UHGV virus genome: UHGV-1372779 | Direction: 5' to 3' (one strand) | DNA: 64,000 bases | Source: a virus | Shown: one piece after another, positions 10,445 through 63,756 of the stretch | Layout of the letters: each line of letters begins with the position of its first letter | How positions within the stretch are numbered: the first letter of the stretch is position 1 | Position numbers and translations under genes: made by a program | The notes under the pieces: model-generated | What the model was told of the DNA's origin: nothing | The model's database searches: none | Seen by the model: only the letters and a program-made list of their open reading frames with translations

Positions 10445-13400
10445 TTATGCATCTGTTACTATATATATTGTAGTGCTTGACCTGGATGATGGAAGCTGTG
10501 ATTCTGTTCCTACCCAGATGTCATAACCATTCCATTTAGTGGCCGTAGTAGAGGTAGCTGCATTACCAGTAATTGATACTCCTAAAGTAGTAGAACATTG
10601 AGTAATGGTTCCTGCATTCATATAAACTGGAACTGTTGAGGAGCCTACTGTGGCTGAACAAGCTGTTGCAGTACCTGCACTTAGATAAATAGGTTTAGCT
10701 GTACCTCCTACTGTAGAAGAGCCTAATTTAGATGCAGTAGTTGCTGTTGTAGCATTTCCACTTAAAGCTCCTACAAATGTTTCTGCAGTAATTTTTACTC
10801 CTGAATTGGAACCTTGACCATTACAAAATTTATACTCAGTAATAGGATTAGTAGTATTTCCACTAACTCCTGATCTATAATTAATATATATACTAGTAGT
10901 ATTAGTATTGGCAAAGTTAAATTCATTTGAATTAACTATAAGATTATTACCACTTGCTTGTACAGCATAATTTTTATTATTTACCCACGATTGAGTGGCA
11001 TATCCAGAAAGAGAAGAACTAGTTAAGAATCCACTATTGTTGGTTAAATCACTTGTTCTAGTAGGAATTTCATCAGTTGTGGCTAATTTTTTTCTAACCC
11101 AAGTAGATTTATCAGTGCTATTTGGTCCTGACATTATGTAAGCACTAGGAGTTGCAGCTTTTACTACTCCAATAGCTGTTGCATAGGGCACATCACTCCA
11201 TGAATATGCATTCATTAATATCCAATCACAATATCCTCCTCCACTTGATTCAGCATTAGTATACATCATGTTACATTGTAATTTGTATGTGCCTATAGAA
11301 CCTGGAGCTATAACACCTCCAGAACCAGTATATCTACCAACAATATATTCATGAGTATGTGCAGAAGGAGTAAATGAGGAAGGTTTTCCTGTAATATCAT
11401 TCCATGATACTGACACAGACGCTGATCCTTTAGTAACTGTTAGGGTATGCCCACTTGCTGATATTCCTGTTACTACACTGCCACTTCCAGAAGTAGTTAT
11501 AGAGATAGATGGTATAGTAGGTATTTGATCTACTGTTGCAAGTGTTTTATTACCAAAAGTAACTTTATCTGTATAGACCTTAAGATTATTTACAGCAGAA
11601 TAACTTAAGTTTGTGCCAACACCTATATAAGCATAACTTGGAGTGTCTCCATTTCCATATCCACCAAATGTAACTCCAGATGTACTAGCTGAATTAGTAT
11701 TTCCAATCCAATAACCTCTAGCCCAACCCCCTGTTCCAGCATTAGCAGCTAAATACACTCCACTAGTAAATAATGGAGAAGATGATCCAGATTTATAATA
11801 ACCTTGACTAGTAACCCAGTTTTGAGTTGCAGGATTTGGGAGATTATAAGCATCCCACATTACATAATCTGTTCCACTAGAGCCATCTGTACTTCTATAG
11901 TGTAATATATCAGAAGCATTAGATAAAAGGAAAGTTCTCATCTTACTAGTATAATTACCTATCATTACATAACCAGCACCATCTGACTTATTTACATTAA
12001 TGGCATTATGATATGACCCATTGTGGGAATATTGTAATATGGCTTGCCCATCACACTGGAGTGATGTGGTTGCCCTAATAAATCCATTTGCTATGATATA
12101 CCCAGTTCTAAAATTATACCATCCTGGGGTACTATCCCACCATTCTAAATATTTAGCAGCTCCTGCTGAAGCTTGTGCAGCTTTAGATAAACTTACATTT
12201 ACATAATTTTCTCCTCCAACTGCAGTTATAACATTATCATCTGTAGTAAGGAGTTTTACATTAGAGCTAGGTGTTCCAAAATAAGCACCATCAGTTCCTA
12301 CAAATAAATATTTATTGCTTTCATAGTTATATATATAGCTTCCAATGCTAGACAAGAATCCAATAGCTGCCTTATCAGTTCCGTTTAATTTAACCTTAAT
12401 AAAAGATTCGTTTCCACCAGAACTTGTATTATTTATTATTAGTGAATTAGATGCTGCATTGATAATTAATTGTCCAGTTAATGTTCCTCCTGTTAGTGGT
12501 AAATAGCCAGCAGCTTTAGAATTTACATAATCTTCAGTAGCTAATACTGTCCAATTATTCCATTCTACAGAAGAATAAGTTTTAGTACTTCTATATCTTA
12601 ATTTACCATTATTTTCAGCAGTGTTAGTTTGATCAATCCATAATTGAGTGTTCCAATGCCCTGATCTGCTATTAATTTGTAATACACTTCCATAAGCACT
12701 AGGTTTGTTTTCTGCATCTGTACTAACTCTCCAAACTTTTAAAGATCCTTCAACCTCTTTATAAACACCACCTTCATTAGTCCAATCATTATTTGAGAAT
12801 GCAAGCCATCCTCCATTTAATCTAAGACTACCAGTCATAGTATCTCCACTCTTAAGAACATATCTACTATCTCCAACACTAGAGATATTAGACCATGTGG
12901 GAACACCACCAGTAGAAGTTAGCACTTGACCACTAGTTCCAGCAGCAGTTGGAGCATATATAGATGTAGTAGCTGCATTAGTTGCTGATAAGAAAGTCCA
13001 TTGAGAGCCATTAACTCCTAGATTTCTGTTATAAACAGTTGTTGGAGTTGCAGCAGTGCCTGAAGCATATAATAATGGAGAAGTGAGGTTAAAAGCATCC
13101 CATATTCTATATGAGGTCCCATTTCTTATATGAGAAATATCTGCAGCATCACTATATAAGAATGTATGCCCATCAGAATCTCCAATATAAGTTACATTAT
13201 CACTTCCCTTTCCAATTAATCTTTTTGAATTGCCACTAGAATCTTTAGATTGTATAGTGATATTATTACTCATTATAATGCTGCCAGTCATAGTGCCCCC
13301 AGCCAATGGAAGATAATTACCAGCCACAGAAGTTATCTTATTACTAACCCAATTAGTATCAGCTAAAAATTTCCAAGTACCAGAAGCTCCAGTAGAAGGA

Positions 13401-15667
13401 GTATATCTTCTATACGCCATTCCAGTGCCATCAATATCTCCCACAAGTTGGAAGGCAAAATCACCTTGCCAGAAGTAAGTTAAAGCAACTCCATCATTTA
13501 TTACCTGACTACTTATAGGATCAGTCCCTGGCCTATTTTCAGGATCATTTGCAAATGAGGAAATATGTAACACATCGTTTCCAGTCCTTGCTATAGTAAG
13601 ATTGGAGATTCTAAAATCACTTGTAAATCCTGTGTATGACTTAATAGCTCCTTTAGAATATATTCCATTATTAGGAACTTTTGTCTCATCACTATAATTA
13701 TTAGAAACAAGTAATGATCCTACATTCATTCCAATAGCAGCTCCTGTTGTTTTAGCAGATATTCTAGTTGTAGAAGCATCTAAGAATACATCATTTGTTC
13801 CAAAATAATATTTATTAGAATGATTATTGGCTATATAAGCATTAGCAAATGCCCAACTACTAGTTCCTAAATATCCATTACCTCCAGAAGCTAGATTACC
13901 ACTAACATTAGGTAAAAATCCACTCGTACAGGCTCTTAAATACCCTGGAGAAGTTCCATCCTGATTTATTATTTCTGGATAACCATTAGCATCATATTTA
14001 TATACTGCAATTCTATTATTTTCTATTGCCCAATAACTTCCATAATATCCCATATTAGAAAGTTTATTCCCATCTTGATCTACCGAAGATATAAGATTAT
14101 AATTATCTTCATCAGTAGATTTAAGATAAAGTTTAACATCATTTGGGCCAGCAATAATGATATAATTCTTAAATTCAGTATTCTCTAAATCTGCATGATA
14201 TAATACTTCTGAACCATCAGAAGCTCTGTTAAAAGTGATAGCTGTTACTGGGACAGTAAACTGTGCAACTGTATCTTTTAGAGATAATTTAGTAACATCA
14301 CTTCTTTTAAATAGAAAATCAGATACAGAAGATATTGTACTAGGAAGTAAAATATTTTTGTGGAAATAGAAACCAGTTTTATCTGTATCTAAATTAAGAT
14401 TAGTGTTTCCTGCACTTATAAATATTCCTCCTAATGAGTTAGAATACCTTAGTGTTTGATTTAAAGCATCTCCTGAAAATGAGTGACTTGTTAATTGAAG
14501 ATAAGAATTATTATCTGTAAAAGCTAACTTCCTATCAGAGGGAATTATATTAGTAGTTTTCAATCTTTTAGTAGAAGAATCCCAAGATGTAAACATTCCA
14601 TTTAACATATCAGCATCATCATCTCTAAGAGCTAGACACCATAAATCTCCTTCCTCTCCAGCTTTAAATCTCCTATCTGATTCATCAAATAATATTTGGA
14701 ATTTAGGTAACGTACCTCTATCAATTTCAATTCCTGCAAATCCTTTAGATACCCCTGCTGCAGTTTCTCCTCTATTTAAAAGAATTGTATTATCTCTCAC
14801 CTCAACTGTCTCAGCTTGAGTTATAAAACTCTCTCCTTTTTGAGTTACATTTCCTTCTATAATTATATCCCCTAACGTAACAGGAGCATAGGAGTTATCT
14901 TGATTATTTCTTACTTCTAACTTACCTCCACTGTTTTTGATAATAACTCCCCCATTTGGATCTAATCTAGTATCTATATCACTTTTCTGTAATTGCCAAG
15001 TTTGAGAAGTAGTCCCTGTATTAGATAATCCATCAGCATTGTCCATCCAGTGTTTCTTTTCTGGAGAAACTAATCCATTATTATCATCTGTAACAAGAGG
15101 AATGTTTAAATTAGTAGTAACAGATTCATCAGTATCTGGATTATATTTAGTAACAGTTAAAAATAATGATTCTGTTTCTGCATCAGATATAATCTTAGCA
15201 TCTGTTTGATAACCAGTTACATTATTTAATCTATTAACATAGAACTTAGAAAGTAATCCATTATATAATGTTCCATCACCTAAAACTGTAGCTTCTGGAA
15301 TACTATAATCTCTTAAGGAGGTTATATTAGTATTAGGATCATAACTATGTTCTCTATATAATAAGTTATTATCTTTATCATAGATAATCTCTGTATCTAC
15401 TAGATAATTTTTTATATTCTCTAATTTATCTTTTTCTTCTTTTTCAAATTTGGATAATATTACCCATTTATTTTCATCTTTATGATACACATATTCACTA
15501 TCTGTTTCTTTCACATATACCTTCATTCTATCATAGGCTATGTGTTTAGTTACAAGAGAATCTCTCTCTTCTATTGTTTCAGGATTTAACCTAGGATCTA
15601 ATGGAACCTCCGATTGTATTTTTAAACTATTTATAACCGGAGTCCCATTAGCATAAAAAAGATTCAT
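10445..15667 (-). CDS. Giant tail fibre protein (1740 aa)
   Basis: Six-frame ORF with G/S/T/N-rich beta composition. Shares internal modules with the 2230-aa fibre (LGTSSWAFANAYIANN..YYFG..VGSLLVSNNYS; HYRSTDGSSGTDYVMWDAYNL). Confidence 0.7.
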   Translation of the reverse strand: MNLFYANGTPVINSLKIQSEVPLDPRLNPETIEERDSLVTKHIAYDRMKVYVKETDSEYVYHKDENKWVILSKFEKEEKDKLENIKNYLVDTEIIYDKDNNLLYREHSYDPNTNITSLRDYSIPEATVLGDGTLYNGLLSKFYVNRLNNVTGYQTDAKIISDAETESLFLTVTKYNPDTDESVTTNLNIPLVTDDNNGLVSPEKKHWMDNADGLSNTGTTSQTWQLQKSDIDTRLDPNGGVIIKNSGGKLEVRNNQDNSYAPVTLGDIIIEGNVTQKGESFITQAETVEVRDNTILLNRGETAAGVSKGFAGIEIDRGTLPKFQILFDESDRRFKAGEEGDLWCLALRDDDADMLNGMFTSWDSSTKRLKTTNIIPSDRKLAFTDNNSYLQLTSHSFSGDALNQTLRYSNSLGGIFISAGNTNLNLDTDKTGFYFHKNILLPSTISSVSDFLFKRSDVTKLSLKDTVAQFTVPVTAITFNRASDGSEVLYHADLENTEFKNYIIIAGPNDVKLYLKSTDEDNYNLISSVDQDGNKLSNMGYYGSYWAIENNRIAVYKYDANGYPEIINQDGTSPGYLRACTSGFLPNVSGNLASGGNGYLGTSSWAFANAYIANNHSNKYYFGTNDVFLDASTTRISAKTTGAAIGMNVGSLLVSNNYSDETKVPNNGIYSKGAIKSYTGFTSDFRISNLTIARTGNDVLHISSFANDPENRPGTDPISSQVINDGVALTYFWQGDFAFQLVGDIDGTGMAYRRYTPSTGASGTWKFLADTNWVSNKITSVAGNYLPLAGGTMTGSIIMSNNITIQSKDSSGNSKRLIGKGSDNVTYIGDSDGHTFLYSDAADISHIRNGTSYRIWDAFNLTSPLLYASGTAATPTTVYNRNLGVNGSQWTFLSATNAATTSIYAPTAAGTSGQVLTSTGGVPTWSNISSVGDSRYVLKSGDTMTGSLRLNGGWLAFSNNDWTNEGGVYKEVEGSLKVWRVSTDAENKPSAYGSVLQINSRSGHWNTQLWIDQTNTAENNGKLRYRSTKTYSSVEWNNWTVLATEDYVNSKAAGYLPLTGGTLTGQLIINAASNSLIINNTSSGGNESFIKVKLNGTDKAAIGFLSSIGSYIYNYESNKYLFVGTDGAYFGTPSSNVKLLTTDDNVITAVGGENYVNVSLSKAAQASAGAAKYLEWWDSTPGWYNFRTGYIIANGFIRATTSLQCDGQAILQYSHNGSYHNAINVNKSDGAGYVMIGNYTSKMRTFLLSNASDILHYRSTDGSSGTDYVMWDAYNLPNPATQNWVTSQGYYKSGSSSPLFTSGVYLAANAGTGGWARGYWIGNTNSASTSGVTFGGYGNGDTPSYAYIGVGTNLSYSAVNNLKVYTDKVTFGNKTLATVDQIPTIPSISITTSGSGSVVTGISASGHTLTVTKGSASVSVSWNDITGKPSSFTPSAHTHEYIVGRYTGSGGVIAPGSIGTYKLQCNMMYTNAESSGGGYCDWILMNAYSWSDVPYATAIGVVKAATPSAYIMSGPNSTDKSTWVRKKLATTDEIPTRTSDLTNNSGFLTSSSLSGYATQSWVNNKNYAVQASGNNLIVNSNEFNFANTNTTSIYINYRSGVSGNTTNPITEYKFCNGQGSNSGVKITAETFVGALSGNATTATTASKLGSSTVGGTAKPIYLSAGTATACSATVGSSTVPVYMNAGTITQCSTTLGVSITGNAATSTTATKWNGYDIWVGTESQLPSSRSSTTIYIVTDA

Positions 15668-45917: not shown

Positions 45918-46000
45918 TCCTCCTTCGCATAGTGGTTGATTGCACTGGCTTTGTAACCCAGTCCTGAAAAGGCACGTCAGTTCGAATCTGACAGGAGGAT
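45918..46000 (+). tRNA. Atypical class II tRNA-like gene (long variable arm, 9-nt anticodon loop cuuuguaac or 7-nt loop with a C-C closing mismatch); isotype unresolved
   Basis: Perfect acceptor tcctcct/aggagga. D-arm gca-agtggttgatt-tgc. Stem actgg/ccagt. Variable arm tcctgaaaaggcac. T-arm gtcagttcgaatctgac. Confidence 0.45.
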
Positions 46001-46043
46001 CAATTAAATAACACATTAAATAACACATTAAATAGATAACAAT

Positions 46044-48660: not shown

Positions 48661-48690
48661 CAAAAGTCACTTACAATACTGCATATTTAA

Positions 48691-48762
48691 GAACGAATAG
48701 CTTAGCGGATAAAGCAATTATCTTGGATATAATAGTTCTGGGTTCGATTCCCAGTTTGTTTA
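48691..48762 (+). tRNA. tRNA-Pro (anticodon UGG), AT-rich
   Basis: Acceptor gaacgaa/tttgttt (G-U pairs). Anticodon arm attat-cuUGGau-ataat. T-arm ctgggttcgattcccag. Preceded by the ACTTACAATA motif at 48669. Confidence 0.6.
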
Positions 48763-48771
48763 GTAAAATTA

Positions 48772-48984
48772 GTGACTATTTTTAAATTAAAATCAAAATC
48801 AAAGATTATGGAAACTTATATTAAAATGTATAAACAAAGATATTATGGTTATTACTGTAATATGTGTAAGGATTTAGGAATTAAACCTGTTCCATACTGT
48901 GACTTTGATAAGAATTTATACAAAGAAACAAAACTTTTATTAAAAGATTCAATATTTTGGGCTAGTTCTGGATTTGACAGGTGA
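48772..48984 (+). CDS. Hypothetical protein (70 aa)
   Basis: Small ORF after the tRNA cluster. Confidence 0.3.
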   Translation: MTIFKLKSKSKIMETYIKMYKQRYYGYYCNMCKDLGIKPVPYCDFDKNLYKETKLLLKDSIFWASSGFDR

Positions 48985-49719
48985 TTAGAACAGTATTAAG
49001 ACATGTAGGAAGGCAGTTTCCTTATAAAGGCAAAACTAATAAATGCTAAAGGTAGAGTAATCTCCTTCTCTAGACCTGCAGCTATTGCAGCGTAAGAGTT
49101 GGGTTGTCAACTGACCTAGAAACAGAATAGTTGTAAATATTAAAAAAGGATTGTATTAATATAAGCAAACCAGAATCCTTGAACCTGTGAATCTCTAGGT
49201 TGTAAATATATTTTTTATATTTCCCTTTTAGAAGGTGACAGACCATTGGGTAATTCCATAGGAGCGCTGTTAGGCTTATGAAGTTTCCTTATTCTTTAAA
49301 AATAAGGTGGTGGAGTAGTAATCCATGATTACCCCAAAGTTTGGTAGTTTGTGTATAGCTGAAAAATGGACAGTTGTGTGATATTGTATAAGCACACAAG
49401 TCAGTAAAACTATCTATAATTGATCTATGTGATTTATAGATCATAAACATGTATATCTTAATACTAAGTAAATTGTCTGGACCGGAGTTCGACTCTCCGC
49501 TAGTCCACGGGAACAAGTTAGGTGTGCTCAGGGTAAAGCTCTGAGGGTTAGATATGGATGGAATCAGAAGTACTAGTCTCCTTCTGGATTGAACTAAGAA
49601 AAGAGTATATAAGCATAGTGGACGCACTAAATTTGTGAAATTACTCCACCAAAAGAGATTTTGGTCTAGTAGCATCTAACTTTTTTAAAAATATTAACAT
49701 TTTAAATAACAAAAACAGT
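48985..49719. ncRNA. 735-bp ORF-free structured region: degenerate group I intron-like element or other structured RNA
   Basis: No plausible ORF (only a low-complexity minus-strand ORF). Contains group-I-like blocks: ATTGCAGCG..GGGTTGTCAAC (P-element-like, 49093..49120), GATATGGATGGAATCAGAAGTACTAGTC (J6/7-R-like, 49551..49578) and AAGCATAGTGGAC (S-like, about 49618). Long-range pairing GGTGGAG-TAG-TAAT (49308..) with ATTACTCCACC (49640..). tRNA-T-arm-like hairpin tggac-cggagttcgactctccg-ctag-tcca at 49479..49508. Confidence 0.35.
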
Positions 49720-50166
49720 ATGGAAAGAATTAACTTCACAGAAGAGAACTTAGCTCAGCTAAAAGATCTTGCAGTAGAGTTCTTATTTAATAGAACTACA
49801 TTTAATGGTCCTATGAGTACTCAATATGATGTAACTCAAGTGATACATGACACTACTATGAGTTCTTTAAAGTCTATGTTCAATAGCATTAAATCTGCAA
49901 TAGATAAGAAATCTAATGTAAGTAGATGGACTACTTCAGCTGCAGAACAAAAAGAATTGAAGATTCTTGAGGATAAGAAAGAGTTCTTAGACCTACTAAT
50001 GGGATATAAACTCTATCAAGCTCAGGAAGCTGAAGTTGCCAGAGAAGCAGAAGCTCTTAGAGCTGAGATTAAATCTCTTGAGGAAGATACAAAAACTCCT
50101 GAAGAGAAGCTTAAAGAGAAGAAAGAAGCTTTATCTAAGTTAGAAAATTTCTTCAAAATGGTTTAG
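49720..50166 (+). CDS. Hypothetical coiled-coil protein (148 aa)
   Basis: ORF with its own ATG immediately after an in-frame stop. Confidence 0.45.
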   Translation: MERINFTEENLAQLKDLAVEFLFNRTTFNGPMSTQYDVTQVIHDTTMSSLKSMFNSIKSAIDKKSNVSRWTTSAAEQKELKILEDKKEFLDLLMGYKLYQAQEAEVAREAEALRAEIKSLEEDTKTPEEKLKEKKEALSKLENFFKMV

Positions 50167-50312
50167 GTTTATAAAACAGTAGCAAGGTTATAGTTTATAT
50201 TTCTTGCTACTGCATGTTACTTACAATCTAACAAACTTGTCTGATCTGCAAGTAAAAAAGGATCTCCATAGCTATCATCTTTATTAATAATTAAGTTTAA
50301 TCAAGTAACATT

Positions 50313-51836
50313 ATGAAAGTAGAATTAAATAACAAAGAAACAAATCCTTTTTCTGGGTTAAGAAACTGTTTGAAGATTTTTAACAACGGTGGTCAAGGCA
50401 TTACATTAAGTCAAGATGATTTAAATAAAGCCTGGGAAGAGGTAAAAGATAGTAAAGAGAAGAAAGAGATGTTTTTCTCTCTATTATTCTCATTAGGAGA
50501 TATTACTGCCAGACAACACAACATCTTTAGAGGTCAAAAAGTTGATTCTGGAGGTAATTCTCAAAGGGAAATTTTTTTCAACTGTATGGAGTGGATGAAA
50601 AAGAATATCCCAGATCAATTCTTTAAATTCATGAAATCTCATTTATTTAATGAGTACACTTGTTTTGATAATCTATTTAGGAATAGAGTCCAAACTCAGG
50701 GTAAGAAGATCATATCTATTAAATCTGTGTTGAACACATCTGATAATAGATATTTCAATGAGTTATTAGATTACACTGAATCTATTATCAAAGGTAAGAA
50801 TCCTTATGATAAGATGCTTGTAGCTAAATTCTTAACTCTTCCTAGATTATCACCAAGAAAAGAGCATAAACAAATGCTTCCTCAAACTAAAGAATTGATG
50901 AAAGCAAAGGCTAAATTCTTAGAAGAATTATCTAAGAGAATGAATTGGCCTTATAAAATTGAAGGAAATATACTAAACTTCAAAGGATATAGAGAGTGGA
51001 GGAAGGAATACAACTCTACATTAGAATCTGTTCTTTTCAGTACTGGAAAGATTAAAGATTTTGATGAAATTCAGTTTTTGGAATGGTTGGATAGAATCCC
51101 TGCACAAGCTAGATTCAGAGTGAGAAACAGAATCATGTTTGAGAAAGAGGGAACATTTAAATATCCTAAACTGAAAGAGTGGTATGAAAAGTGGGAGAAA
51201 TACAAAGAAGAGAAACAGGCAGAGCAAAGAGTTCTTGAAGAGAAAGTTCGCCAAGGACAGGCTAGTGTAGAGGATAAAGTTAAATTGGAAAAGGTTAAAA
51301 AAGAAGCCAAGGTAACAGTTGGATCTACTAACTTCCAAGAACTTTATAAAGAGATCCTTAGTGGAAGGATTGATAAACTTAAATTGGAGTCTTTTGTGAA
51401 TAACAAAGTAAGTCTTCAATATAATAGTTTAGTGATTATTGATGACTCCGGATCTATGGGTGGTGCGCCTTTTAACTTTGCTAAATTTATTGCATCTGTT
51501 TGTCTTGTTAAAAATCCAGATGATGATGGAAGAAACCTTTTAGGATTCTTCAATTATGATTCTAGACTATACGGAAGTATGGATAGAGCTGGAAGTAAGA
51601 CTCCTAATAGCTTAATGAGATCAAGTGTGAAGAATATTGTTAAGAAGCCTTTTGTAGATCCTCATAAGAGTTTCTATGAAAACTATCAAAACATTTCTTC
51701 ATTCTGCCAAGGTGTATTCCAAGGTGGAGGTACTAGAATAAATAGTATCCCAAAAGGATTTGCTGAACAAGCTAATAATAATCCTGTATTATTAGATGAA
51801 CTTATGCAATACCCAGTTTGGACAATTGTTAGTGAT
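50313..51836 (+). CDS. Ro60/Rsr-like protein, exon 1: helical N-terminal (TROVE-like) region plus first part of vWA domain
   Basis: About 370 aa helical N-terminal region, then a vWA domain starting VIIDDSGSMGG (MIDAS DxSGS at residues 376..381) with GGGTR downstream. Ends ...YPVWTIVSD followed by a stop at the intron boundary. Confidence 0.45.
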
Positions 51837-53045
51837 TAAATTCTATTCATAGTCACTCCCAATAGTAATATTGGTGTAAAAATGCTTTAAATTGCGGGAA
51901 ACTCCTTAGAGACTAATTAACTAAGTATAAACAGTGATGTTTATATGGCCTTATTAATGATTAAGGGTATAGTAAAATCAATTAGTATTGGAAAATCCGC
52001 AGCCAAATCTCTTTTATAAAATAATTTAATAAATTCTACAATCATTTTGATTTCTGAATTTAATTGTTTATATTTGTATTATGTTAAACTAATACAAATA
52101 AACATGAGAAAATTAGAACAAAATGAAATTAATAAAATTCTTCAGCTTTACACTGAAGAAAAATATTCAATATCTAAAATAAGAGCACTTTTCAAACTTC
52201 AATTTGATGATGTAAAACATATTCTAGAAGAAAACGGAATAAAGACAAAATCTCAAAGAGAAAGTAGAAAGACTTATGATTATAATGAAAACTATTTTTC
52301 TGAAATAAACACAAAAGATAAAGCCTATTGGTTAGGATTTATTTACGCTGATGGATTTATTACTAAAAAGGCTAAAGGAAGTCCAGTTTTTGGAATGACT
52401 TTAGGAGAAATAGAGCCATTAGAAAAGTTAAATAAATATATGGATTCTAACAAACCTATAGGAATATATAAGAAGAAAAATAGTTATTCTGAAAAATCTA
52501 TTGAATATAAATTAGCTTTCTGTTCTCCTAAATTAGTTTCAGATTTAGAGAAATGGGGAGTTGTAGAAAACAAAACATTCAAATTAAAATTTCCTAACTT
52601 TCTATCTCCAAACCTCATTCCTCATTTTATTAGAGGGTATTTTGATGGAGATGGGAGTGTATATCTTCACATTCAAAAAACTAAGGATAAGGAATATATA
52701 TTCTTGGGTTCCCAGTTTTGCGGAACCAAAAGTTTTCTTTCAGACTTATCTAAATATATAAACTTAGAAACTTGCTTATATAAAGATAGTAGAAAACAAA
52801 CTGATTGTTGGAGGATACAATTAAATTCAAACATAAGAAGCTTAACCTTATATCATTATTTATATAATAATTGTGAAGATTTATTCTTATCAAGAAAAAG
52901 GGAAAAATTTGAAAATTTTATAAAAGAGAGAGGTTCAACGACTACAATAAGCAATCCTATCTATGGTGATCCAGAATATTTAACTCTGTGTTATCTAGAG
53001 GATTAAGGTATAGTCTAATCTTATATGAAAGTATAAGTAGTTATG
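51837..53045 (+). mobile_element. Group I intron with LAGLIDADG homing endonuclease ORF
   Basis: AAATTGCGGGAAA (51893..51905) is identical to the Tetrahymena-type P element. Q-like AATCCGCAGCCAA at about 51993. GACTA/TAGTC P7 candidates at 51915 and 53012. Near-identical GATTAAGG(G)TATAGT blocks at 51962 and 53002 flank the endonuclease ORF. The 5' exon ends in U and the intron ends in G (53045). Confidence 0.6.
52047..53006 (+). CDS. LAGLIDADG homing endonuclease (319 aa)
   Basis: Two LAGLIDADG motifs: YWLGFIYADGFI and IRGYFDGDGSV. Confidence 0.8.
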   Translation: MISEFNCLYLYYVKLIQINMRKLEQNEINKILQLYTEEKYSISKIRALFKLQFDDVKHILEENGIKTKSQRESRKTYDYNENYFSEINTKDKAYWLGFIYADGFITKKAKGSPVFGMTLGEIEPLEKLNKYMDSNKPIGIYKKKNSYSEKSIEYKLAFCSPKLVSDLEKWGVVENKTFKLKFPNFLSPNLIPHFIRGYFDGDGSVYLHIQKTKDKEYIFLGSQFCGTKSFLSDLSKYINLETCLYKDSRKQTDCWRIQLNSNIRSLTLYHYLYNNCEDLFLSRKREKFENFIKERGSTTTISNPIYGDPEYLTLCYLED

Positions 53046-53354
53046 GGTGAATGGAATAATATGTATTCTCCAGAAGCTTCGATGAATGAATTCTTCAGAG
53101 ATTGTGAGAATCTTTTAGGATTTAGACCATTTATCATTGCGATAGATATTCAAAATCCTAATTGGGCATATCAGACATTTAAAGCTGATAGATTCACTGG
53201 TATAGATAATATGATCTATATTCCAAGTAACCCAGCTCAAATTGAGCAAATTCTTACAAATTTCAAGGACATTGAAATCTTTGATGTCTATACTCCGTTA
53301 CTCTCTTTATACAGAAGTAATAGATATGATCTAGTAAGGACTAATGTAATTTAG
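53046..53354 (+). CDS. Ro60/Rsr-like protein, exon 2 (C-terminal part of vWA domain)
   Basis: Joining ...TIVSD to GEWNNMYS... recreates the vWA h-h-h-(T/S)DG-x-x-N motif (IVSDGEWN). Continues with FIIAIDIQNP... Confidence 0.5.
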   Translation, partial: GEWNNMYSPEASMNEFFRDCENLLGFRPFIIAIDIQNPNWAYQTFKADRFTGIDNMIYIPSNPAQIEQILTNFKDIEIFDVYTPLLSLYRSNRYDLVRTNVI

Positions 53355-53429
53355 TCCTTACTATTAAAATGACTCAATTATTATAAAGAACAATACAGAT
53401 ACTTACAATATTACAAGAATCAATTTATG

Positions 53430-53454
53430 CAGGTTCAACTCCTGTCTTTTGCAT
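53430..53454 (+). pseudogene. tRNA 3' fragment (T-arm plus 3' acceptor strand) without upstream D/anticodon arms
   Basis: gcaggttcaactcctgt plus cttttgc plus a. The complementary 5' strand gcagaag, with a D-arm and a cuGAGaa anticodon arm, lies just downstream (53466..53510). This could be a permuted or rearranged gene. Confidence 0.35.
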
Positions 53455-53589
53455 TAGCAGAAGTGGCGAAATTGGTATACGCACTGGTCTGAGAAACTAG
53501 GAATATAATATTCAATAGTATCTATTTATGACTTTTCTTTTCCTTGCATGATATACTGATACTTACAAAATCAAAACCATCTGTGGGTC

Positions 53590-53648
53590 GAGGGTTCGAA
53601 TCCTTCAAATCGCGCGTTTTGCGAATTTAGCTCAGTAGGTTTAGAGCA
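53590..53648 (+). pseudogene. tRNA 3' fragment followed by a tRNA 5' fragment (acceptor plus D-arm only)
   Basis: gagggttcgaatccttc-aaatcgc-g, then gcgaatt-ta-gctcagtaggtttagagca. The two acceptor strands are complementary except for one A-A. No anticodon arm follows. Confidence 0.35.
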
Positions 53649-53731
53649 ATAGACAAAAAAGTATCATTCAGATAAGGAAATAATATTTTAGAATAAAAAT
53701 TATAAAGTCACTTACAATATTATCATAATTC

Positions 53732-53805
53732 GTAGAAATAACTCAATAGGATAGAGTACAAAACTTATAATTTTGGTGTTCAGGGTTCGATCCCCTGTTT
53801 TTACA
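53732..53805 (+). tRNA. tRNA-Ile (anticodon UAU), AT-rich
   Basis: Acceptor gtagaaa/tttttac. D-arm actc-aataggata-gagt. Anticodon arm caaaa-cuUAUaa-ttttg. T-arm cagggttcgatcccctg. Confidence 0.6.
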
Positions 53806-53840
53806 GTGTAATTATTATAGTGACTAATTTTATATTTTAA

Positions 53841-53952
53841 GGGGATGGTTTATAACTATTAGTAAATTTATATTTACTTACAAAATCATAAACTGTACGG
53901 AAAAATTTACACCACAAATGTAAACAAGCAGGTTCGAATCCTGCCATCCCCG
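53841..53952 (+). ncRNA. 112-nt tRNA-like RNA (Y-RNA/YrlA-like candidate) with perfect acceptor-type stem ggggatg/catcccc
   Basis: Terminal 7-bp stem plus discriminator g. Canonical T-arm gcaggttcgaatcctgc. Anticodon-arm-like hairpin tttaca-ccacaaa-tgtaaa. No D-arm. Contains the internal ACTTACAAAATC motif. Confidence 0.45.
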
Positions 53953-53980
53953 CAAAAGCTACTTACAATAAGATTTAAAT

Positions 53981-54053
53981 ATAACAATAGCTCAGTTGGT
54001 TGAGCAAATTTTTGGTAAAAATTAGGTCGTAGGTTCAAGTCCTACTTGTTAAA
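53981..54053 (+). tRNA. tRNA-Thr (anticodon GGU)
   Basis: Acceptor ataacaa/ttgttaa. D-arm gctc-agttggtt-gagc. Anticodon arm aattt-uuGGUaa-aaatt. T-arm gtaggttcaagtcctac. Confidence 0.65.
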
Positions 54054-54082
54054 TAAATTTAAAAGTAGCTATTTTATAACTT

Positions 54083-54199
54083 GGGGAGGTTGAAATGTTG
54101 GAGTAAGAGTATCAGTTCATTGTGATACTTACAAAATCAAATTAATTTCGAATAAATTTGGGTTTTATCTTAACGCAGGTTCGATTCCTGTCCTCCCCA
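54083..54199 (+). ncRNA. 117-nt tRNA-like RNA (Y-RNA/YrlA-like candidate) with perfect acceptor-type stem ggggagg/cctcccc
   Basis: Terminal 7-bp stem plus discriminator a. T-arm gcaggttcgattcctgt. Internal ACTTACAAAATC motif. No canonical D or anticodon arms. Confidence 0.45.
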
Positions 54200-54241
54200 C
54201 TACGTTTCGTAAGAGCAAATAGTCAGACACTTACAATACTA

Positions 54242-54314
54242 TAAATTGTAGCTCATTGGGTAGAGCATTTGATTTTTAATCAAAGGGTAGTGGGTTCAAG
54301 TCCCATCTTAGTGT
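54242..54314 (+). pseudogene. tRNA-Lys(UUU)-like body with non-complementary acceptor strands (pseudo-tRNA or non-canonical)
   Basis: D-arm tagctcattgggtagagca. Anticodon arm tttga-uuUUUaa-tcaaa. T-arm gtgggttcaagtcccat is identical to that of tRNA-Lys at 59069. 5' taaattg and 3' cttagtg do not pair. Outer stem cagacact/agtgtctg flanks the unit. Confidence 0.35.
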
Positions 54315-54326
54315 CTGTTTTTAAAT

Positions 54327-54398
54327 TGAGACATCGTATAATGGTTAATACATCAGATTTTGATTCTGAGAATCTAGGTTCGAATCCTAGTGCCTCAA
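54327..54398 (+). tRNA. tRNA-Gln (anticodon UUG)
   Basis: Acceptor tgagaca/tgcctca (one mismatch). D-arm gtat-aatggtta-atac. Anticodon arm tcaga-uuUUGau-tctga. T-arm ctaggttcgaatcctag. Confidence 0.55.
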
Positions 54399-54488
54399 CA
54401 TTTATTCTTGTTTATTGTTCCATATGTGTTATTGGATGAGTGTATAGGTAGAAATACTTATACACTCTTTTTATTTAAAATTAGTTAT

Positions 54489-57511: not shown

Positions 57512-57597
57512 AGTACCTTTGGCCGAGTGGACGATGGCACATGACTGTTAATCATGCAGGAGAAATCCTCACCGTAAGTTCGAATCTTACAGGGTAC
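57512..57597 (+). tRNA. Atypical tRNA: class II architecture (GCCGAGUGG D-arm, 17-nt variable arm, G73) with a GUU (Asn) anticodon
   Basis: Acceptor gtacctt/agggtac. D-arm gcc-gagtggacgat-ggc. Anticodon arm catga-cuGUUaa-tcatg. Variable arm caggagaaatcctcacc. T-arm gtaagttcgaatcttac. Confidence 0.5.
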
Positions 57598-57729
57598 GCT
57601 CATTCTTAACCTACATCTTAGGATGCTAATATAGTTGTACAAGAATGTCTTTGTAGTGTTAGGTGAATACAAAGACGCTGGCTGCAGCGTGATACTCAAT
57701 GGTGGAATTAAGAGCAGCACCACCAATTT

Positions 57730-61929: not shown

Positions 61930-63756
61930 ATGGAAGGATTAGATTTAAGTTCGCTATTAATTGTAGCAGGAATTTTAGTTGTAGTAATTATTATTACTAT
62001 CATTGCGGTTTTATCAAGATATAGGAAGTGTCCTCCTGATAAAATCTTAATAATTTATGGTAAATCTTCTAAGGATAAAGAAGGTAACAAGAAACCTTCT
62101 AAGGTTATTCATGGAGGATCTACATTTGTTTGGCCTTACTTCCAAGGTTATACTACAATGTCCTTAATTCCAATTCAATTTAAATGTACTATTGCTGATG
62201 CATTATCAAGTCAGTATATTAGAGTAACTGTGCCTATTACAGCTACAGTTGCTGTAAATTCTGAGGAACCATTTGTTCAAAATGCAGTAAGTAGATTAGC
62301 TGGATTGACTGAGGACACTATTATAGAAATGACTAGAGAAATTATCTATGGCCAATTTAGGGAAATTATTTCTAAATCTTCTATTGAACAGTTAAATGCT
62401 GACAGAGATGCTTTTAGAACTAACTGTGAGCAAAGTATTGCTAGTGAGTTAAATAAACTAGGATTGAAACTTATCAATATTAACATTGTGGATATTCAAG
62501 ATGAAGCTGGATATATTGCAAATATTGGTAAGAAGGAAGCAGCTAAAGCAGTTAATCAAGCTAAAGTAGAAACTGCAGAGGAAGACAAACAAGGAGCAAC
62601 TAAGAGTGCTGAGATTGAAAAGGATAAAGCAACCCAAGTAGCAGAAACTGAAAAGAATAGAATTAGTATTTTAGCAGAAACCAAGAAAGAGGAGGCTATT
62701 AAGGTTGCAGAAACTGAGAAGAATAGAGTGAGTGCTTTAGCAGAGATTGAGAAAGAGAAAGCTACTCAAGTAGCAGAGGCTGATAGAATCAGAGAGACTA
62801 CTGTAGCTGAAACCAAAGCTCAAGAAAGTGCAAGTATTGTACAATCTAAGAATAATGCAGCTGTAGAAATTGCTAAATCAGATGCAGAAAGGGAATCTAA
62901 ACAAGTAGAGTTTGATAACTCTAAGGAAATTAAGATTGCTCAATCTAACTCTGAAATGGAAATTAGAAAAGCAGAAGCTGAGAAGAATGCAATGGTTGGG
63001 AAGAATGAAGCAATGAAAGCTGTTGCAACCTCTGAAGGAGAATTGAAGGTAACTGAAGCAGAAGCAGAGAGAAAAGCTAGAGAGGCTCAAGTAATTGCAG
63101 ATGCTAAGGTTAAAGAAAGACAAGAACTTCAACAAAAAGCTGTAGAGGAAGCTAGAGCGCAAAAAGTTGAAACTCAGTTAAAAGCTGAAAAGATTGTTCC
63201 TGCAGAAATTGAGAAGGAGAAAGCTCGTCTTAATGCGGAGGCTTATCAGAATGAAGTAACTGGTAAAGCTAAAGCCGAAGCTGAGGCTATTAAACTCAAA
63301 GCAGAAGCAGAAGCGGCTGCAATTAGATTAAAACAAGAAGCAGAAGCAGCAGGTATTCAGGCTAAACTTGAAGCTGAGGCTGAGGGTAAGAGAAAGTCTG
63401 CATTAGCTGAGGCTGAGGGATTTAAAGCAACCATGGAAGCAGCTAAAGGAAATGAAACCTTAGCAATTCATTACAAAATGGTTACTCAGTATAAGGAAAT
63501 TGCTGGTGAGCAGGTTAAAGCATTTGAGAAGATGAACCTTGGAAATATCAATATCTTTGATACTGGTGATGGTAAAGGTGCTGGGAAGTTCATGAAGGAT
63601 ATTGTTAATACAGTTGCGCCTGCAACTAGTGTGTTATCCGAAATGCCAGTAATTGGAAAAGCTGTGAAAGCATTAGAGAGTGCTTTAGATAAGAAGAATG
63701 AGAGTGAGAATGGGGAGGGAGATGTTAAATCTTCTGCTTTCGAAGAGGTAAAGTAA
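61930..63756 (+). CDS. Flotillin-like SPFH/Band-7 protein with EA-repeat coiled coil (608 aa)
   Basis: N-terminal TM helix. SPFH-type domain (PPDKILIIYGK..GGSTFVWPYFQ..). Long Ala/Glu-rich coiled coil with repeated AEAEA/EAEAA units as in FloT/YuaG. Confidence 0.65.
   Translation: MEGLDLSSLLIVAGILVVVIIITIIAVLSRYRKCPPDKILIIYGKSSKDKEGNKKPSKVIHGGSTFVWPYFQGYTTMSLIPIQFKCTIADALSSQYIRVTVPITATVAVNSEEPFVQNAVSRLAGLTEDTIIEMTREIIYGQFREIISKSSIEQLNADRDAFRTNCEQSIASELNKLGLKLININIVDIQDEAGYIANIGKKEAAKAVNQAKVETAEEDKQGATKSAEIEKDKATQVAETEKNRISILAETKKEEAIKVAETEKNRVSALAEIEKEKATQVAEADRIRETTVAETKAQESASIVQSKNNAAVEIAKSDAERESKQVEFDNSKEIKIAQSNSEMEIRKAEAEKNAMVGKNEAMKAVATSEGELKVTEAEAERKAREAQVIADAKVKERQELQQKAVEEARAQKVETQLKAEKIVPAEIEKEKARLNAEAYQNEVTGKAKAEAEAIKLKAEAEAAAIRLKQEAEAAGIQAKLEAEAEGKRKSALAEAEGFKATMEAAKGNETLAIHYKMVTQYKEIAGEQVKAFEKMNLGNINIFDTGDGKGAGKFMKDIVNTVAPATSVLSEMPVIGKAVKALESALDKKNESENGEGDVKSSAFEEVK

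What the first reader, a model, noticed from the sequence alone, without database searches (positions are those of the whole stretch)
50313..54200. Ro60/Rsr-like (helical N-domain plus vWA) gene next to Y-RNA-like tRNA mimics inside a tRNA array
The 508-aa exon-1 product has an all-helical N-terminal region of about 370 aa followed by a vWA domain whose MIDAS motif DxSGS sits at residues 376..381. A helical TROVE-like domain followed by a MIDAS-bearing vWA domain is the Ro60/Rsr architecture, and the MIDAS placement is compatible with Ro60. Within 600 bp downstream lie two 112-117 nt RNAs (53841..53952 and 54083..54199). Each has a perfect 7-bp GGGG-initiated acceptor-type stem plus discriminator and a canonical T-arm, but no D-arm or true anticodon arm. 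That is the layout described for bacterial YrlA-type Y RNAs, which mimic tRNAs and bind Ro60. A phage-encoded Rsr/Y-RNA module embedded in its tRNA cluster would be a plausible RNA-surveillance or host-RNA-decoy system and is not a standard phage annotation.
Basis: partly seen in the sequence, partly recalled or inferred. Interest (0 to 1): 0.9.

Follow-up and report, generated by a model that had tools for sequence, protein, structure and literature searches.

The report
Tagged tRNA-like RNAs beside phage vWA gene
A gut phage distantly related to crAss-like phages carries a conserved protein gene, only loosely Ro60-like, followed by split, rearranged and ordinary tRNA genes that all share one short RNA tag, which points to an undescribed RNA-protein system built on tRNA scaffolds.

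Summary

The two flagged RNAs are not YrlA-like. RNA2 is a tRNA-Pro(UGG) body with a ~44-nt insertion in its D-loop, and RNA1 is a weaker case of the same kind. The second has the YrlA order: terminal stem, T-arm, closed acceptor, D-arm.

All these units, three bracketed ordinary tRNAs, and the 5' end of the protein gene share a covarying 6-7-bp helix followed by UUACAA. The arm is paired in 226 of 315 copies, against 12 in the control. The tag clusters around this gene in relatives sharing 47-70% identity.

Best reading (confidence 0.4): the tag is a recognition or processing element, and the vWA protein is its likeliest reader. No description of this was found in the searched literature.

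The parts
49720..50166 (+). 148-aa ORF just upstream of the vWA gene; a conserved neighbour of unknown function
   Evidence: tblastn finds it 200-900 nt upstream of the vWA gene in 24 related loci, at 25-50% identity over ~97 aa. It has no Pfam, NCBIfam or PDB match.
50214..50311 (+). Helix-UUACAA tag on the 5' leader of the vWA gene: arm ATGTTAC (50214-50220), TTACAA (50221-50226), partner GTAACAT (50305-50311) ending 1 nt before the ATG
   Evidence: In most relatives the tag sits ~32 nt upstream of the ATG, and its partner lies in codons 8-10, so the start codon is inside the loop. The arms covary: CGTTAC/GTAACG, TGTTAC/GTAACA, TTTTAC/GTAAAA. 23 of 28 loci have the motif within 100 nt upstream of the start.
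50313..51836 (+). Exon 1 of the vWA/MIDAS protein gene (residues 1-508)
   Evidence: ORF. The splice is reconstructed. Intronless 610-aa alleles are 100% identical.
51837..53045 (+). Mobile intron, probably group I, inserted at the conserved vWA 'SD|GE' motif. It carries a LAGLIDADG homing-endonuclease ORF (52047/52104-53006).
   Evidence: The ORF matches LAGLIDADG_3 at 1.6e-8 and phrog_4645 endonuclease at 9e-55. 51866-52011 resembles DNA inside Vibrio-phage DNA-polymerase genes and in phage cr271_1. The 5' exon ends in U and the intron ends in G. Rfam Intron_gpI gives only a weak 3'-end hit (13.8 bits, 53003-53035).
53046..53354 (+). Exon 2 (residues 509-610, the end of the vWA domain)
53397..53523 (+). 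Element A, a circularly permuted tRNA-Leu(GAG)-like gene. Order: outer helix AGATACT/AGTATCT, TAC, second helix AATATTA/TAATATT, T-arm (53429-53445), acceptor 3' strand CTTTTGC, loop ATTA, acceptor 5' strand GCAGAAG, Leu-type D-arm, complete anticodon arm (53484-53500).
   Evidence: The homologue in L004 has compensatory acceptor changes (ATTTTCT/AGAAAAT).
53557..53666 (+). Element B, a permuted tRNA-like RNA with YrlA-like topology. Order: terminal helix TGATAC/GTATCA, UUACAA, anticodon-stem equivalent TCTGT (53580) / ATAGA (53649), variable loop GGGTC, T-arm (53590-53606), acceptor closed by a loop (AAATCGC...GCGAATT), D-arm (53630-53647). It has no anticodon loop.
   Evidence: (YrlA model aligns end to end but scores only 20.3 bits).
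53706..53825 (+). Ordinary tRNA-Ile(UAU) (53732-53805) bracketed by tag arm AGTCAC+TTACAA (53706-53717) and partner GTGACT (53820-53825)
53841..53952 (+). RNA1 of the finding: a tRNA-derived gene with an insertion after the acceptor/D region. The insertion carries the local hairpin GTAAAT-ttat-ATTTAC (53862-53877) followed by TTACAA (53878-53883). An anticodon-like hairpin lies at 53906-53924 and the T-arm at 53928-53944.
   Evidence: The homologue in L004 has a clean anticodon arm GTATT-CTTGAAA-AATAC.
53957..54070 (+). Ordinary tRNA-Thr(GGU) (53980-54054) bracketed by AGCTAC+TTACAA (53957-53968) and GTAGCT (54065-54070)
54083..54199 (+). RNA2 of the finding: a tRNA-Pro(UGG) body interrupted in the D-loop by a ~44-nt insertion (about 54102-54145). 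The insertion contains the hairpin GTATCA-gttcattg-TGATAC (54109-54128) followed by TTACAA (54129-54134).
   Evidence: (110 deletion variants called tRNA-Pro tgg).
54225..54316 (+). Element E: a tRNA body (Rfam tRNA positions 7-64, anticodon loop TTTTTAA) lacking a proper acceptor stem, bracketed by AGACAC+TTACAA and GTGTCT
   Evidence: 50.3 bits, partial. One search aligns 19 homologues; the bracket arms covary: AGACAC/GTGTCT, AGTCAC/GTGACT, AGATAC/GTATCT, AGGTAC/GTACC, GGACAC/GTGTCC.
54327..54467 (+). tRNA-Gln(UUG) (54327-54399) followed by the only strong intrinsic-terminator-like hairpin of the cluster (54438-54467 plus a T-run). This marks the likely end of a vWA-plus-RNA transcription unit.
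48665..48777 (+). tRNA-Pro(UGG) (48691-48762) bracketed by AGTCAC+TTACAA and GTGACT. It is an outlying copy of the same tag, upstream of the tmRNA.

Best explanation
The locus is a conserved phage module with three components.
1. A 610-aa protein with a helical N-domain and a C-terminal vWA/MIDAS domain. Its architecture is Ro60-like.
2. A battery of tRNA-derived RNAs directly downstream. Some are tRNA bodies interrupted by a 40-60-nt insertion (RNA1, RNA2). Some are circularly permuted tRNA-like genes (A, B). Some are ordinary tRNAs whose leader and trailer pair.
3. One shared RNA tag on all of them and on the protein's own 5' leader: a 6-7-bp helix of variable sequence (consensus AGNYAC(U) / (A)GURNCU) followed on the 5' strand by single-stranded UUACAA(U/A)A.

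Proposed mechanism.
- The gene and the RNA cluster are transcribed together.
- The tag folds in the RNA and serves as a recognition site for a protein. The adjacent vWA protein is the likeliest reader.
- This would give a Ro60/Y-RNA-like particle built on tRNA scaffolds, and feedback control on the protein's own start codon.
- On interrupted and permuted tRNA genes, the same tag would mark the precursor for maturation or hold the two halves together.

What is shown: the gene structure, the vWA domain, the tRNA-derived nature and topologies of the RNAs, the tag with its covariation, and the linkage to the gene.

What is inferred: that the tag acts in RNA, that the vWA protein reads it, and what happens next (binding only, cleavage, or splicing/ligation).
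For: - Tag pairing. The 6-mer just 5' of TTACAA has a perfect reverse complement 40-120 nt downstream in 226 of 315 copies, against 12 of 315 in the control. A further ~30 copies pair with an upstream partner to form a local hairpin.
- Strand bias. Motif copies number 341 on the + strand and 37 on the - strand.
- Arm covariation. Arms covary in alignments. In 46 permuted elements RNAalifold recovers the terminal helix, T-arm, closed acceptor and D-stem, with compensatory changes in 16 of 22 pairs.
- Equivalent helices. The permuted and interrupted forms are circular permutations of each other, so the tag helix sits at an equivalent place in both.
- Linkage to the gene. In 28 loci, 23 have the tag within 100 nt upstream of the start, and 95 copies lie in the first kb after the stop. 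Only this protein gene carries the tag in the window. In the window the tag's partner has moved from codons 8-10 to the untranslated leader, yet complementarity is kept.
- One transcription unit is plausible. No terminator is predicted between units, and one strong terminator follows the cluster.
- tRNA mimicry rather than decoding. Orthologous permuted RNAs carry anticodon UUU, GUU, GAU, GUC or UCA, or lack the anticodon arm entirely, while the T-arm, acceptor, D-arm and tag are conserved.
- Redundancy. RNA2 duplicates two intact tRNA-Pro(UGG) genes in the window.
- Precedent. Y RNAs are normally encoded next to Ro60, and YrlA has the order T-arm, acceptor-like stem-loop, D-arm (PMC4201824).
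Against: - The tag does not resemble the Ro60-binding GNCGAAN0-1G helix of YrlA. Rfam YrlA scores only 20 bits.
- There is no direct evidence that the protein binds RNA. Linkage could simply reflect shared ancestry within one phage lineage.
- Many interrupted genes keep good anticodon loops. The insertions sit at sites (position 26, the anticodon stem) that would wreck an L-shaped tRNA. That favours removal of the insert (an intron) over a permanently appended protein-binding arm.
- 9 of 41 permuted genes encode N-CCA after the acceptor 3' strand. This points to real tRNA ends.
- No RNA endonuclease or ligase was found in the 64-kb window.
- A G-U versus A-C bias test for RNA-level pairing was uninformative.
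Confidence: 0.4

Rival explanations
1. The insertions are a new kind of protein-dependent tRNA intron, and the permuted genes are true permuted tRNA genes. The helix-UUACAA element guides an unidentified endonuclease and ligase. Interrupted genes would be spliced to normal tRNAs. Permuted precursors would be circularised, or kept as two pieces, and opened at the acceptor by RNase P and 3' processing. The vWA protein would be at most an accessory factor. This overlaps with the best explanation and differs mainly in the fate of the tag and the role of the protein.
For: - Deleting the insert in silico restores canonical tRNAs: RNA2 to tRNA-Pro(UGG), L005 to Thr(GGU), L047 to Leu(UAG).
- Insertion sites are diverse: 17 in the D-loop, 6 at position 26, 27 in the anticodon-arm region, 2 in the variable region. 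This resembles non-canonical archaeal introns.
- Anticodon loops are well formed, with U33 and a purine at 37.
- N-CCA is encoded after the acceptor 3' strand in 9 of 41 permuted genes, where about 0.3 is expected by chance.
- One element occurs within genes, at the termini of permuted genes, and around whole tRNAs. This mirrors the distribution of the bulge-helix-bulge motif in archaea and red algae (established knowledge).
Against: - No bulge-helix-bulge geometry is evident. In interrupted genes the tag helix is a capped local hairpin, so cutting it cannot define the exon ends.
- On the vWA mRNA the tag encloses the start codon, so excision there would destroy the gene.
- Anticodon arms are lost or changed freely between orthologues.
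- No splicing endonuclease or RNA ligase is seen in the window.
- No such pathway is known in bacteria or their viruses; the literature searches found none.
Confidence: 0.3
2. ACTTACAA(T/A)A is a phage-specific promoter (TACAAT as a -10-like box), with one per small RNA gene and one for the vWA gene. The unusual RNAs would then be by-products of promoters inserted in or next to tRNA genes.
For: - The motif is strictly strand-specific and always lies upstream of a functional unit.
- It sits ~25 nt before the vWA ATG in most relatives and 11-15 nt before mature tRNA 5' ends.
- In the window a hairpin precedes the copy in front of the vWA gene.
Against: - A promoter does not explain why the variable 6 nt upstream of TTACAA are complementary to a partner 40-120 nt away in 72% of copies, with covariation.
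- The other + strand protein genes of the window lack the motif.
- There is no consistent -35 element, and sigma-70-like sites are not enriched: 32 found against 30.3 expected.
- No terminators separate the units.
Confidence: 0.15
3. The elements are selfish DNA: a small mobile insertion with a hairpin and a TTAC-type site that lands in and around tRNA genes. The interrupted and permuted genes would be decaying pseudogenes. Alternatively, the tag could be a partial mimic of a host CRISPR repeat acting as an RNA decoy.
For: - The same ~50-nt element occurs at many positions and in many tRNA genes.
- TTAC is the target of IS608-type single-strand transposases (from my own knowledge).
- A CRISPR repeat in a 365-kb viral contig, GTTGTAAACAACCACAAATTGAAAGGTACTTACAAC, ends in the same AGGTACTTACAA.
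Against: - Acceptor, T-arm and D stems stay paired through compensatory changes across phages sharing only 47-70% protein identity. These are therefore not decaying pseudogenes.
- Arms differ between copies, unlike transposon ends.
- No transposase lies nearby.
- No full repeat-like sequence (a GTTG start with the 5' partner TTGTAA at repeat distance) accompanies the tag.
Confidence: 0.1

Closest known systems
Ro60/Rsr with YrlA-type Y RNAs (bacteria and some phages; PMC4201824)
   Same: - tRNA-like non-coding RNAs are encoded right next to the protein gene.
- Element B and many permuted relatives have the YrlA order: terminal stem, T-arm, closed acceptor-like stem, D-arm.
- Anticodon function is dispensable.
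   Different: - No TROVE sequence signature was detected.
- The tag (helix plus UUACAA) is unrelated to the GNCGAA Ro-binding helix.
- Rfam YrlA scores 20 bits against a threshold of 69.
- The tag also occurs inside otherwise normal tRNA bodies, around ordinary tRNAs, and on the protein's own mRNA.
- There are up to 5-10 tagged RNAs per genome, compared with 1-2 Y RNAs.
Circularly permuted tRNA genes of the red alga Cyanidioschyzon merolae, and split or non-canonical-intron tRNAs of Archaea (established knowledge)
   Same: - The 3' half (T-arm plus acceptor 3' strand) lies upstream of the 5' half, with a short spacer.
- Leader and trailer pair.
- One shared element occurs in interrupted, permuted and flanked genes.
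- CCA is sometimes encoded.
   Different: - The host is a bacterial virus.
- No bulge-helix-bulge motif and no splicing endonuclease were found.
- The break lies mostly in the variable region or the anticodon loop.
- Anticodon arms are often missing.
- Whether a circular intermediate or ligation exists is unknown.
Two-piece tmRNA from circularly permuted ssrA genes (alpha-proteobacteria, cyanobacteria; Rfam tmRNA_permuted)
   Same: This is a bacterial precedent for a permuted tRNA-like gene. Its precursor is cut at the acceptor, and the two pieces stay together by base pairing.
   Different: The RNAs here have no mRNA-like domain and no alanine identity (G3-C70 rather than G3-U70). They are far smaller and occur in many copies. 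The window also has a separate one-piece tmRNA.
Phage group I introns with homing endonucleases (T4 td/nrdB type)
   Same: The interruption of the vWA gene fits this type. The reading frame is restored exactly, intronless alleles exist, a LAGLIDADG ORF is present, and the intron sits in the most conserved motif.
   Different: This applies only to the 1.2-kb intron in the protein gene, not to the 40-60-nt inserts in the tRNA genes.

Membership tests
Ro60 / TROVE family | TROVE domain (PF05731) detectable by sequence | tested here: not met
   There was no TROVE hit for exon 1, for the spliced protein, or for any of 72 relatives. The profile-versus-PDB search matched Ro60 chains only over the MIDAS strand, at E 0.016-2.3. 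hhalign against a Ro60 alignment aligned only residues 376-584, the vWA region.
Ro60 / TROVE family | C-terminal vWA domain with a MIDAS motif, starting at about residue 365-375 | tested here: met
   D377, S379, S381 and D508 are invariant. VWA_2 matches 18 of 72 relatives, and vWA_Ro60 (PF25045) matches 2 weakly. The MIDAS strand aligns to Ro60 residues 364-371.
Ro60 / TROVE family | Ring of helical repeats closed by the vWA domain (the fold) | tested here: inconclusive
   [not shown]
Ro60 / TROVE family | Binds Y RNA and misfolded RNA | not testable with these tools
   Only genomic linkage to tRNA-like RNAs is available.
YrlA Y RNA (RF02553) | Covariance-model score at or above the gathering threshold (69 bits) | tested here: not met
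   The best hits are 20.3 bits (53567-53673, element B), 19.7 bits and 19.5 bits. The last two span a T-arm and the next gene's D-arm.
YrlA Y RNA (RF02553) | Topology: stem formed by the 5'/3' ends, then T-arm, acceptor-like stem-loop, D-arm | tested here: met
   Met by element B (53557-53666), element A, and 46 aligned relatives. Not met by RNA1 or RNA2, whose ends form the acceptor stem.
YrlA Y RNA (RF02553) | GNCGAAN0-1G motif in the Ro-binding helix (PMC4201824) | tested here: not met
   The terminal helices read AGNYAC(U)/(A)GURNCU with UUACAA. No GNCGAA occurs in the helix strands of A, B, RNA1 or RNA2 (sequences).
Permuted tRNA genes | The 3' half (T-arm plus acceptor 3' strand) lies upstream of the 5' half (acceptor 5' strand plus D-arm), with complementary acceptor strands | tested here: met
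   41 T-arms have 7/7 acceptor closure within 16 nt downstream, against 8 in the control. Covariation is seen in all 7 acceptor pairs. N-CCA follows the acceptor 3' strand in 9 of 41.
Permuted tRNA genes | Bulge-helix-bulge motif at the leader/trailer junction, and a circular RNA intermediate | tested here: not met
   The termini form a plain 6-7-bp helix next to asymmetric loops. The circular intermediate is not testable here.
Intron-containing tRNA genes | Removing a contiguous insert restores a canonical cloverleaf | tested here: met
   ARAGORN on deletion variants gave tRNA-Pro(tgg) for RNA2 (110 variants), 18 variants for RNA1, and Thr, Leu and Ser for relatives. Whether the insert is actually removed is not testable here.
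Group I intron (the 1.2-kb interruption of the protein gene) | Catalytic core recognised by Rfam RF00028 | tested here: inconclusive
   There is only a 13.8-bit local hit to the 3' end of the model, at 53003-53035. Supporting features: U at the 5' splice site, G at the intron end, a homing-endonuclease ORF, and intronless alleles.

The most novel reading that the evidence does not exclude
A widespread lineage of gut phages, distantly related to crAss-like phages, runs its own tRNA-maturation pathway. In it, interrupted and circularly permuted tRNA genes are recognised through a 13-nt helix-UUACAA tag by a divergent Ro60-like vWA protein. The RNAs are then spliced, joined, or assembled as two-piece tRNAs or tRNA mimics. 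This would be the first permuted tRNA genes and the first protein-dependent tRNA splicing outside Archaea and eukaryotes. It would also give a Ro60-type protein a direct role in it.
Probability: 0.2. Interest if true: 0.92.

Novelty: new variant of a known kind. Interest (0 to 1): 0.75.

Why it matters
- **Ro60 and Y RNAs.** How they act in bacteria and phages is still poorly understood. This system has many tagged RNAs, a simple sequence tag and an apparent autoregulatory site, so it would be an unusually tractable model.
- **Permuted and interrupted tRNA genes.** They would be new for bacterial viruses, whichever protein reads the tag. Standard tRNA finders miss them: 5 of the 11 T-arm-bearing tRNA or tRNA-like genes between 53.4 and 54.4 kb and at 48.7 kb were not called by ARAGORN. 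tRNA repertoires of these abundant gut phages are therefore being undercounted or misread.
- **Scale.** The protein family has more than 1200 members and no annotation.

Tried and rejected
- **Sigma-70 promoter reading.** The consensus scan shows no enrichment and no consistent -35 element.
- **Kissing or pseudoknot pairing of UUACAA with UUGUAA (a tRNA-Thr-type anticodon loop).** TTGTAA is only about 2-fold enriched downstream of the tag, 41 against 22 expected. I did not pursue this as a general feature.
- **CRISPR-repeat mimic.** The last 12 nt of one 36-nt repeat match the tag. But no 5' partner or full-length repeat accompanies the tag in the loci.
- **G-U versus A-C bias, to separate RNA-level from DNA-level pairing.** The result was uninformative.
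- **Scan of viral contigs for tag plus T-arm.** It was dominated by chance matches. Of 18 loci with two or more armed tags, 13 also held the vWA gene, but this is confounded by shared lineage.
- **Search for RNA ligase or endonuclease genes in the window.** None was found.
- **PHROGs, NCBIfam, direct PDB sequence search and GenBank-phage tblastn for the protein.** None gave a hit.
- **Literature searches** for phage permuted tRNAs, crAss-like promoters, and phage Ro60/Y RNA. They returned nothing describing this tag.
- **tmRNA-like reading of RNA2.** The tmRNA model scores 20 bits. I rejected it because the D-stem and anticodon arm are present and G3 pairs with C70.

Full report
**Setting.** The window comes from a low-GC tailed phage. 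Its terminase is only ~29% identical to those of crAss-like phages. The window holds 27 ARAGORN tRNAs between 44.9 and 60.1 kb and a tmRNA at 48959-49510. The finding lies in the middle of this RNA island.

**The gene.**
- ORF 50313-51839 (508 aa) stops inside the conserved vWA motif '...TIVSD'. A 103-aa ORF at 53043-53354 continues with 'GEWNN...'.
- Joining 50313-51836 to 53046-53354 gives a 610-aa protein.
- Public intronless alleles of exactly 610 aa are 100% identical (P0001), so the junction is proven.
- The 1209-nt intervening sequence carries a LAGLIDADG endonuclease ORF (Pfam 1.6e-8; phrog_4645 9e-55).
- The 5' exon ends in U and the intron ends in G.
- The segment 51866-52011 resembles DNA inside Vibrio-phage DNA-polymerase genes and in phage cr271_1.
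- Rfam gives only a weak hit to the 3' end of the group I model. I call it a probable group I homing intron.

**What the protein is.**
- The family has more than 1200 members in the 90%-clustered database and 157 clusters at 50% identity. All are ~600-680 aa, unnamed, and without precomputed Pfam domains.
- It is absent from GenBank phages by tblastn.
- In 72 divergent members the invariant residues are R67, G81, D377, S379, S381, M382, D508 and N512. That is a MIDAS site plus a small N-terminal motif.
- Pfam finds VWA_2 in 18 of 72 members, vWA_Ro60 weakly in 2, and TROVE in none.
- A profile search of the PDB returns nine weak hits. Five are TROVE/Ro60 chains, but only over the MIDAS strand.
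- hhalign against a Ro60 alignment aligns only the vWA region, at 54% probability.
- An AlphaFold model built on the deep alignment is confident (pLDDT 88, pTM 0.83).
- Conclusion: the vWA/MIDAS domain is certain. The overall architecture is Ro60-like and Ro60 is the nearest solved structure. Membership of the TROVE family is not demonstrated.

**The two RNAs of the finding.** Both have the stated acceptor stem and T-arm, and homologues show compensatory acceptor changes. They are not Y-RNA-like.
- *RNA2 (54083-54199).* It contains a D-stem (GAAA/TTTC), the D-loop GG, an anticodon arm ATAAA-UUUGGGU-UUUAU (anticodon UGG, G37) and a short variable loop. A ~44-nt insertion in the D-loop separates these parts. 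Deleting the insert in silico gives tRNA-Pro(UGG) in 110 variants.
- *RNA1 (53841-53952).* It behaves the same way but is more degenerate (18 variants). Its L004 homologue has a clean anticodon arm.
- *Relatives.* In related phages I found 65 such 'interrupted' genes of 105-135 nt. The insert lies in the D-loop (17), at position 26 (6), in the anticodon-arm region (27) or in the variable region (2).
- *Insert content.* Nearly every insert contains a short hairpin immediately followed by UUACAA; a minority lack a perfect local hairpin under my search criteria.

- Between the gene and RNA1 lie two orphan T-arms.
- Element A (53397-53523) and element B (53557-53666) have the order T-arm, acceptor 3' strand, short loop, acceptor 5' strand, D-arm. 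Their outer ends pair.
- A keeps a full Leu-type D-arm and an anticodon arm (GAG).
- B has no anticodon loop. Its anticodon-stem equivalent (ATAGA/UCUGU) runs through an internal loop into the terminal helix. That is the Y-RNA/YrlA design, and the Rfam YrlA model aligns to B end to end, though at only 20 bits.
- The same architecture recurs in 46 aligned elements from related phages. RNAalifold recovers the terminal helix, T-arm, closed acceptor and D-stem, with compensatory changes in 16 of 22 pairs.
- The arms, acceptor and T-stem were selection criteria, so their pairing is partly by construction. The D-stem was not selected and also covaries.
- Controls support the selected features: acceptor closure occurs in 41 T-arms against 8 in the control, and arms are paired in 226 of 315 copies against 12 of 315.
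- Nine of 41 permuted elements encode N-CCA after the acceptor 3' strand.
- Orthologues at the same genomic position carry anticodon UUU, GUU, GAU, GUC or UCA, or lack the arm altogether.

**The shared tag.**
- ACTTACAA occurs 10 times in the window, all on the + strand and all between 44.6 and 54.3 kb, against 3.8 expected.
- Across loci the consensus is (A)AGNYAC-UUACAA-(U/A)A, with 341 + strand and 37 - strand copies.
- The 6 nt before UUACAA pair with a partner. The partner is either 40-120 nt downstream or just upstream as a local hairpin. The pairs covary.
- *Contexts:*
  - (i) Inside interrupted tRNA genes, as a local hairpin.
  - (ii) At the termini of permuted genes.
  - (iii) Bracketing whole ordinary tRNAs: Ile 53732, Thr 53980, Pro 48691, and the acceptor-less body E at 54248.
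  - (iv) As a ~50-nt stem-loop just upstream of tRNAs in relatives.
  - (v) At the 5' end of the vWA gene. There the loop holds the start codon in most relatives, and in this window the partner lies 1 nt upstream of the ATG.
- The permuted and interrupted forms are circular permutations of each other, so the helix sits at an equivalent place in both.
- The tag is concentrated at this gene. 23 of 28 loci have it within 100 nt upstream of the start, and 95 copies lie in the first kb after the stop.
- No other protein gene of the window has it.
- A conserved 148-aa ORF precedes the gene in 24 loci.
- One strong terminator follows the RNA cluster, with none in between.

**Interpretation.**
- Covariation argues that the tag is a folded nucleic-acid element, not merely a promoter.
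- The absence of internal terminators fits a single transcript.
- The tight, lineage-wide linkage to one protein gene, and the tag's presence over that gene's start codon, make the vWA protein the most economical candidate reader. Combined with the Ro60-like architecture and the YrlA-like permuted RNAs, this gives a Ro/Y-like particle built on tRNA scaffolds.
- Against a pure 'binding arm' model: well-formed anticodon loops, inserts at structurally disruptive positions, and encoded CCA suggest that at least some tagged genes mature into real tRNAs by removal of the insert or assembly of halves. No enzyme for this was found in the window.
- I therefore rank the explanations as follows: tag as a protein-recognition or maturation signal read by the vWA protein, 0.4; novel intron and permuted-tRNA processing with an unknown enzyme, 0.3; promoter, 0.15; selfish DNA or CRISPR-repeat decoy, 0.1.

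**Comparison with known systems.**
- *Ro60/YrlA.* The system shares gene-RNA adjacency, tRNA mimicry, arm order and protein architecture. It fails the sequence tests for both partners.
- *Permuted tRNA genes of red algae and archaeal split or intron-containing tRNAs.* It shares the gene topology and the 'one motif in several contexts' logic. It lacks a bulge-helix-bulge motif and the matching enzymes.
- *Permuted two-piece tmRNA.* This is the nearest bacterial precedent.
- Searches of the held literature found no description of this tag or of permuted tRNA genes in phages.

Noticed in passing
window 48959-49510 (+): Phage-encoded tmRNA, unusually long at 552 nt. Rfam tmRNA scores 49 bits against a threshold of 47, E 2e-16. 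ARAGORN did not call it. It lies between a tRNA trio and the conserved 148-aa ORF.
   Followed up: no
window 51837-53045; also 51866-52011: Mobile intron with a LAGLIDADG endonuclease, inserted exactly at the vWA 'SD|GE' motif. A 146-nt stretch is 74-78% identical to DNA inside Vibrio-phage DNA-polymerase genes and in crAss-like phage cr271_1. This suggests one intron family moving between unrelated phage genes.
   Followed up: partly
window 49720-50166 (+): A 148-aa ORF with a coiled-coil-like C-terminus. Its first ~100 residues are conserved directly upstream of the vWA gene in 24 related loci. It matches no family or solved structure and could be a partner protein.
   Followed up: partly
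L068 1023-1390 (IMGVR_UViG_3300044712_001937, a 365-kb contig): CRISPR array of six 36-nt repeats (GTTGTAAACAACCACAAATTGAAAGGTACTTACAAC) with 30-nt spacers. From memory, the repeat looks like a type VI-B (Cas13b) repeat. Its last 12 nt are identical to one variant of the tag (AGGTACTTACAA). The sequence after the last repeat looks like a tRNA T-arm.
   Followed up: partly
L023, L026, L027, L030, L040 (for example L026 10783-11399): ARAGORN calls tRNA-Leu(UAA) genes with 495-620-nt inserts in the anticodon loop in the larger relatives. These are probably classical group I introns.
   Followed up: no
window 45918-46001 and 57513-57599 (+): tRNA-Thr(UGU) of 84 nt and tRNA-Asn(GUU) of 87 nt are much longer than usual for these normally short-variable-loop tRNAs. 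They do not carry the UUACAA tag.
   Followed up: no
L007 7904-7935, with equivalents in L009, L014, L018, L020: In the ~100-kb relatives, the first tag stem-loop after the vWA stop codon is followed by a conserved strong hairpin GGGTGTAGGAGG...CCTCCTACA. This is a Shine-Dalgarno-like sequence paired to an anti-Shine-Dalgarno-like sequence. It is absent from this window.
   Followed up: no
window 436-7128 (-) and 10445-15667 (-): Giant ORFs of 2230 and 1740 aa next to the portal and terminase genes. The 2230-aa size recalls the virion RNA polymerase of crAss-like phages (from memory). PHROGs gave only weak tail-fibre-like hits.
   Followed up: no
loci generally; for example L021 2776-2891, L027 7916-8034, L040 9591-9705: TTGTAA, the exact complement of the tag's TTACAA, is about 2-fold enriched within 130 nt downstream of the tag. 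It often sits in a 7-nt hairpin loop (C/UUUGUAA, the anticodon loop of tRNA-Thr UGU). This raises the possibility of loop-tag pairing.
   Followed up: partly
window 61930-63756 (+): A 608-aa SPFH/Band-7 (flotillin-like) protein is encoded downstream of the tRNA array. It is conserved in several of the larger relatives.
   Followed up: no
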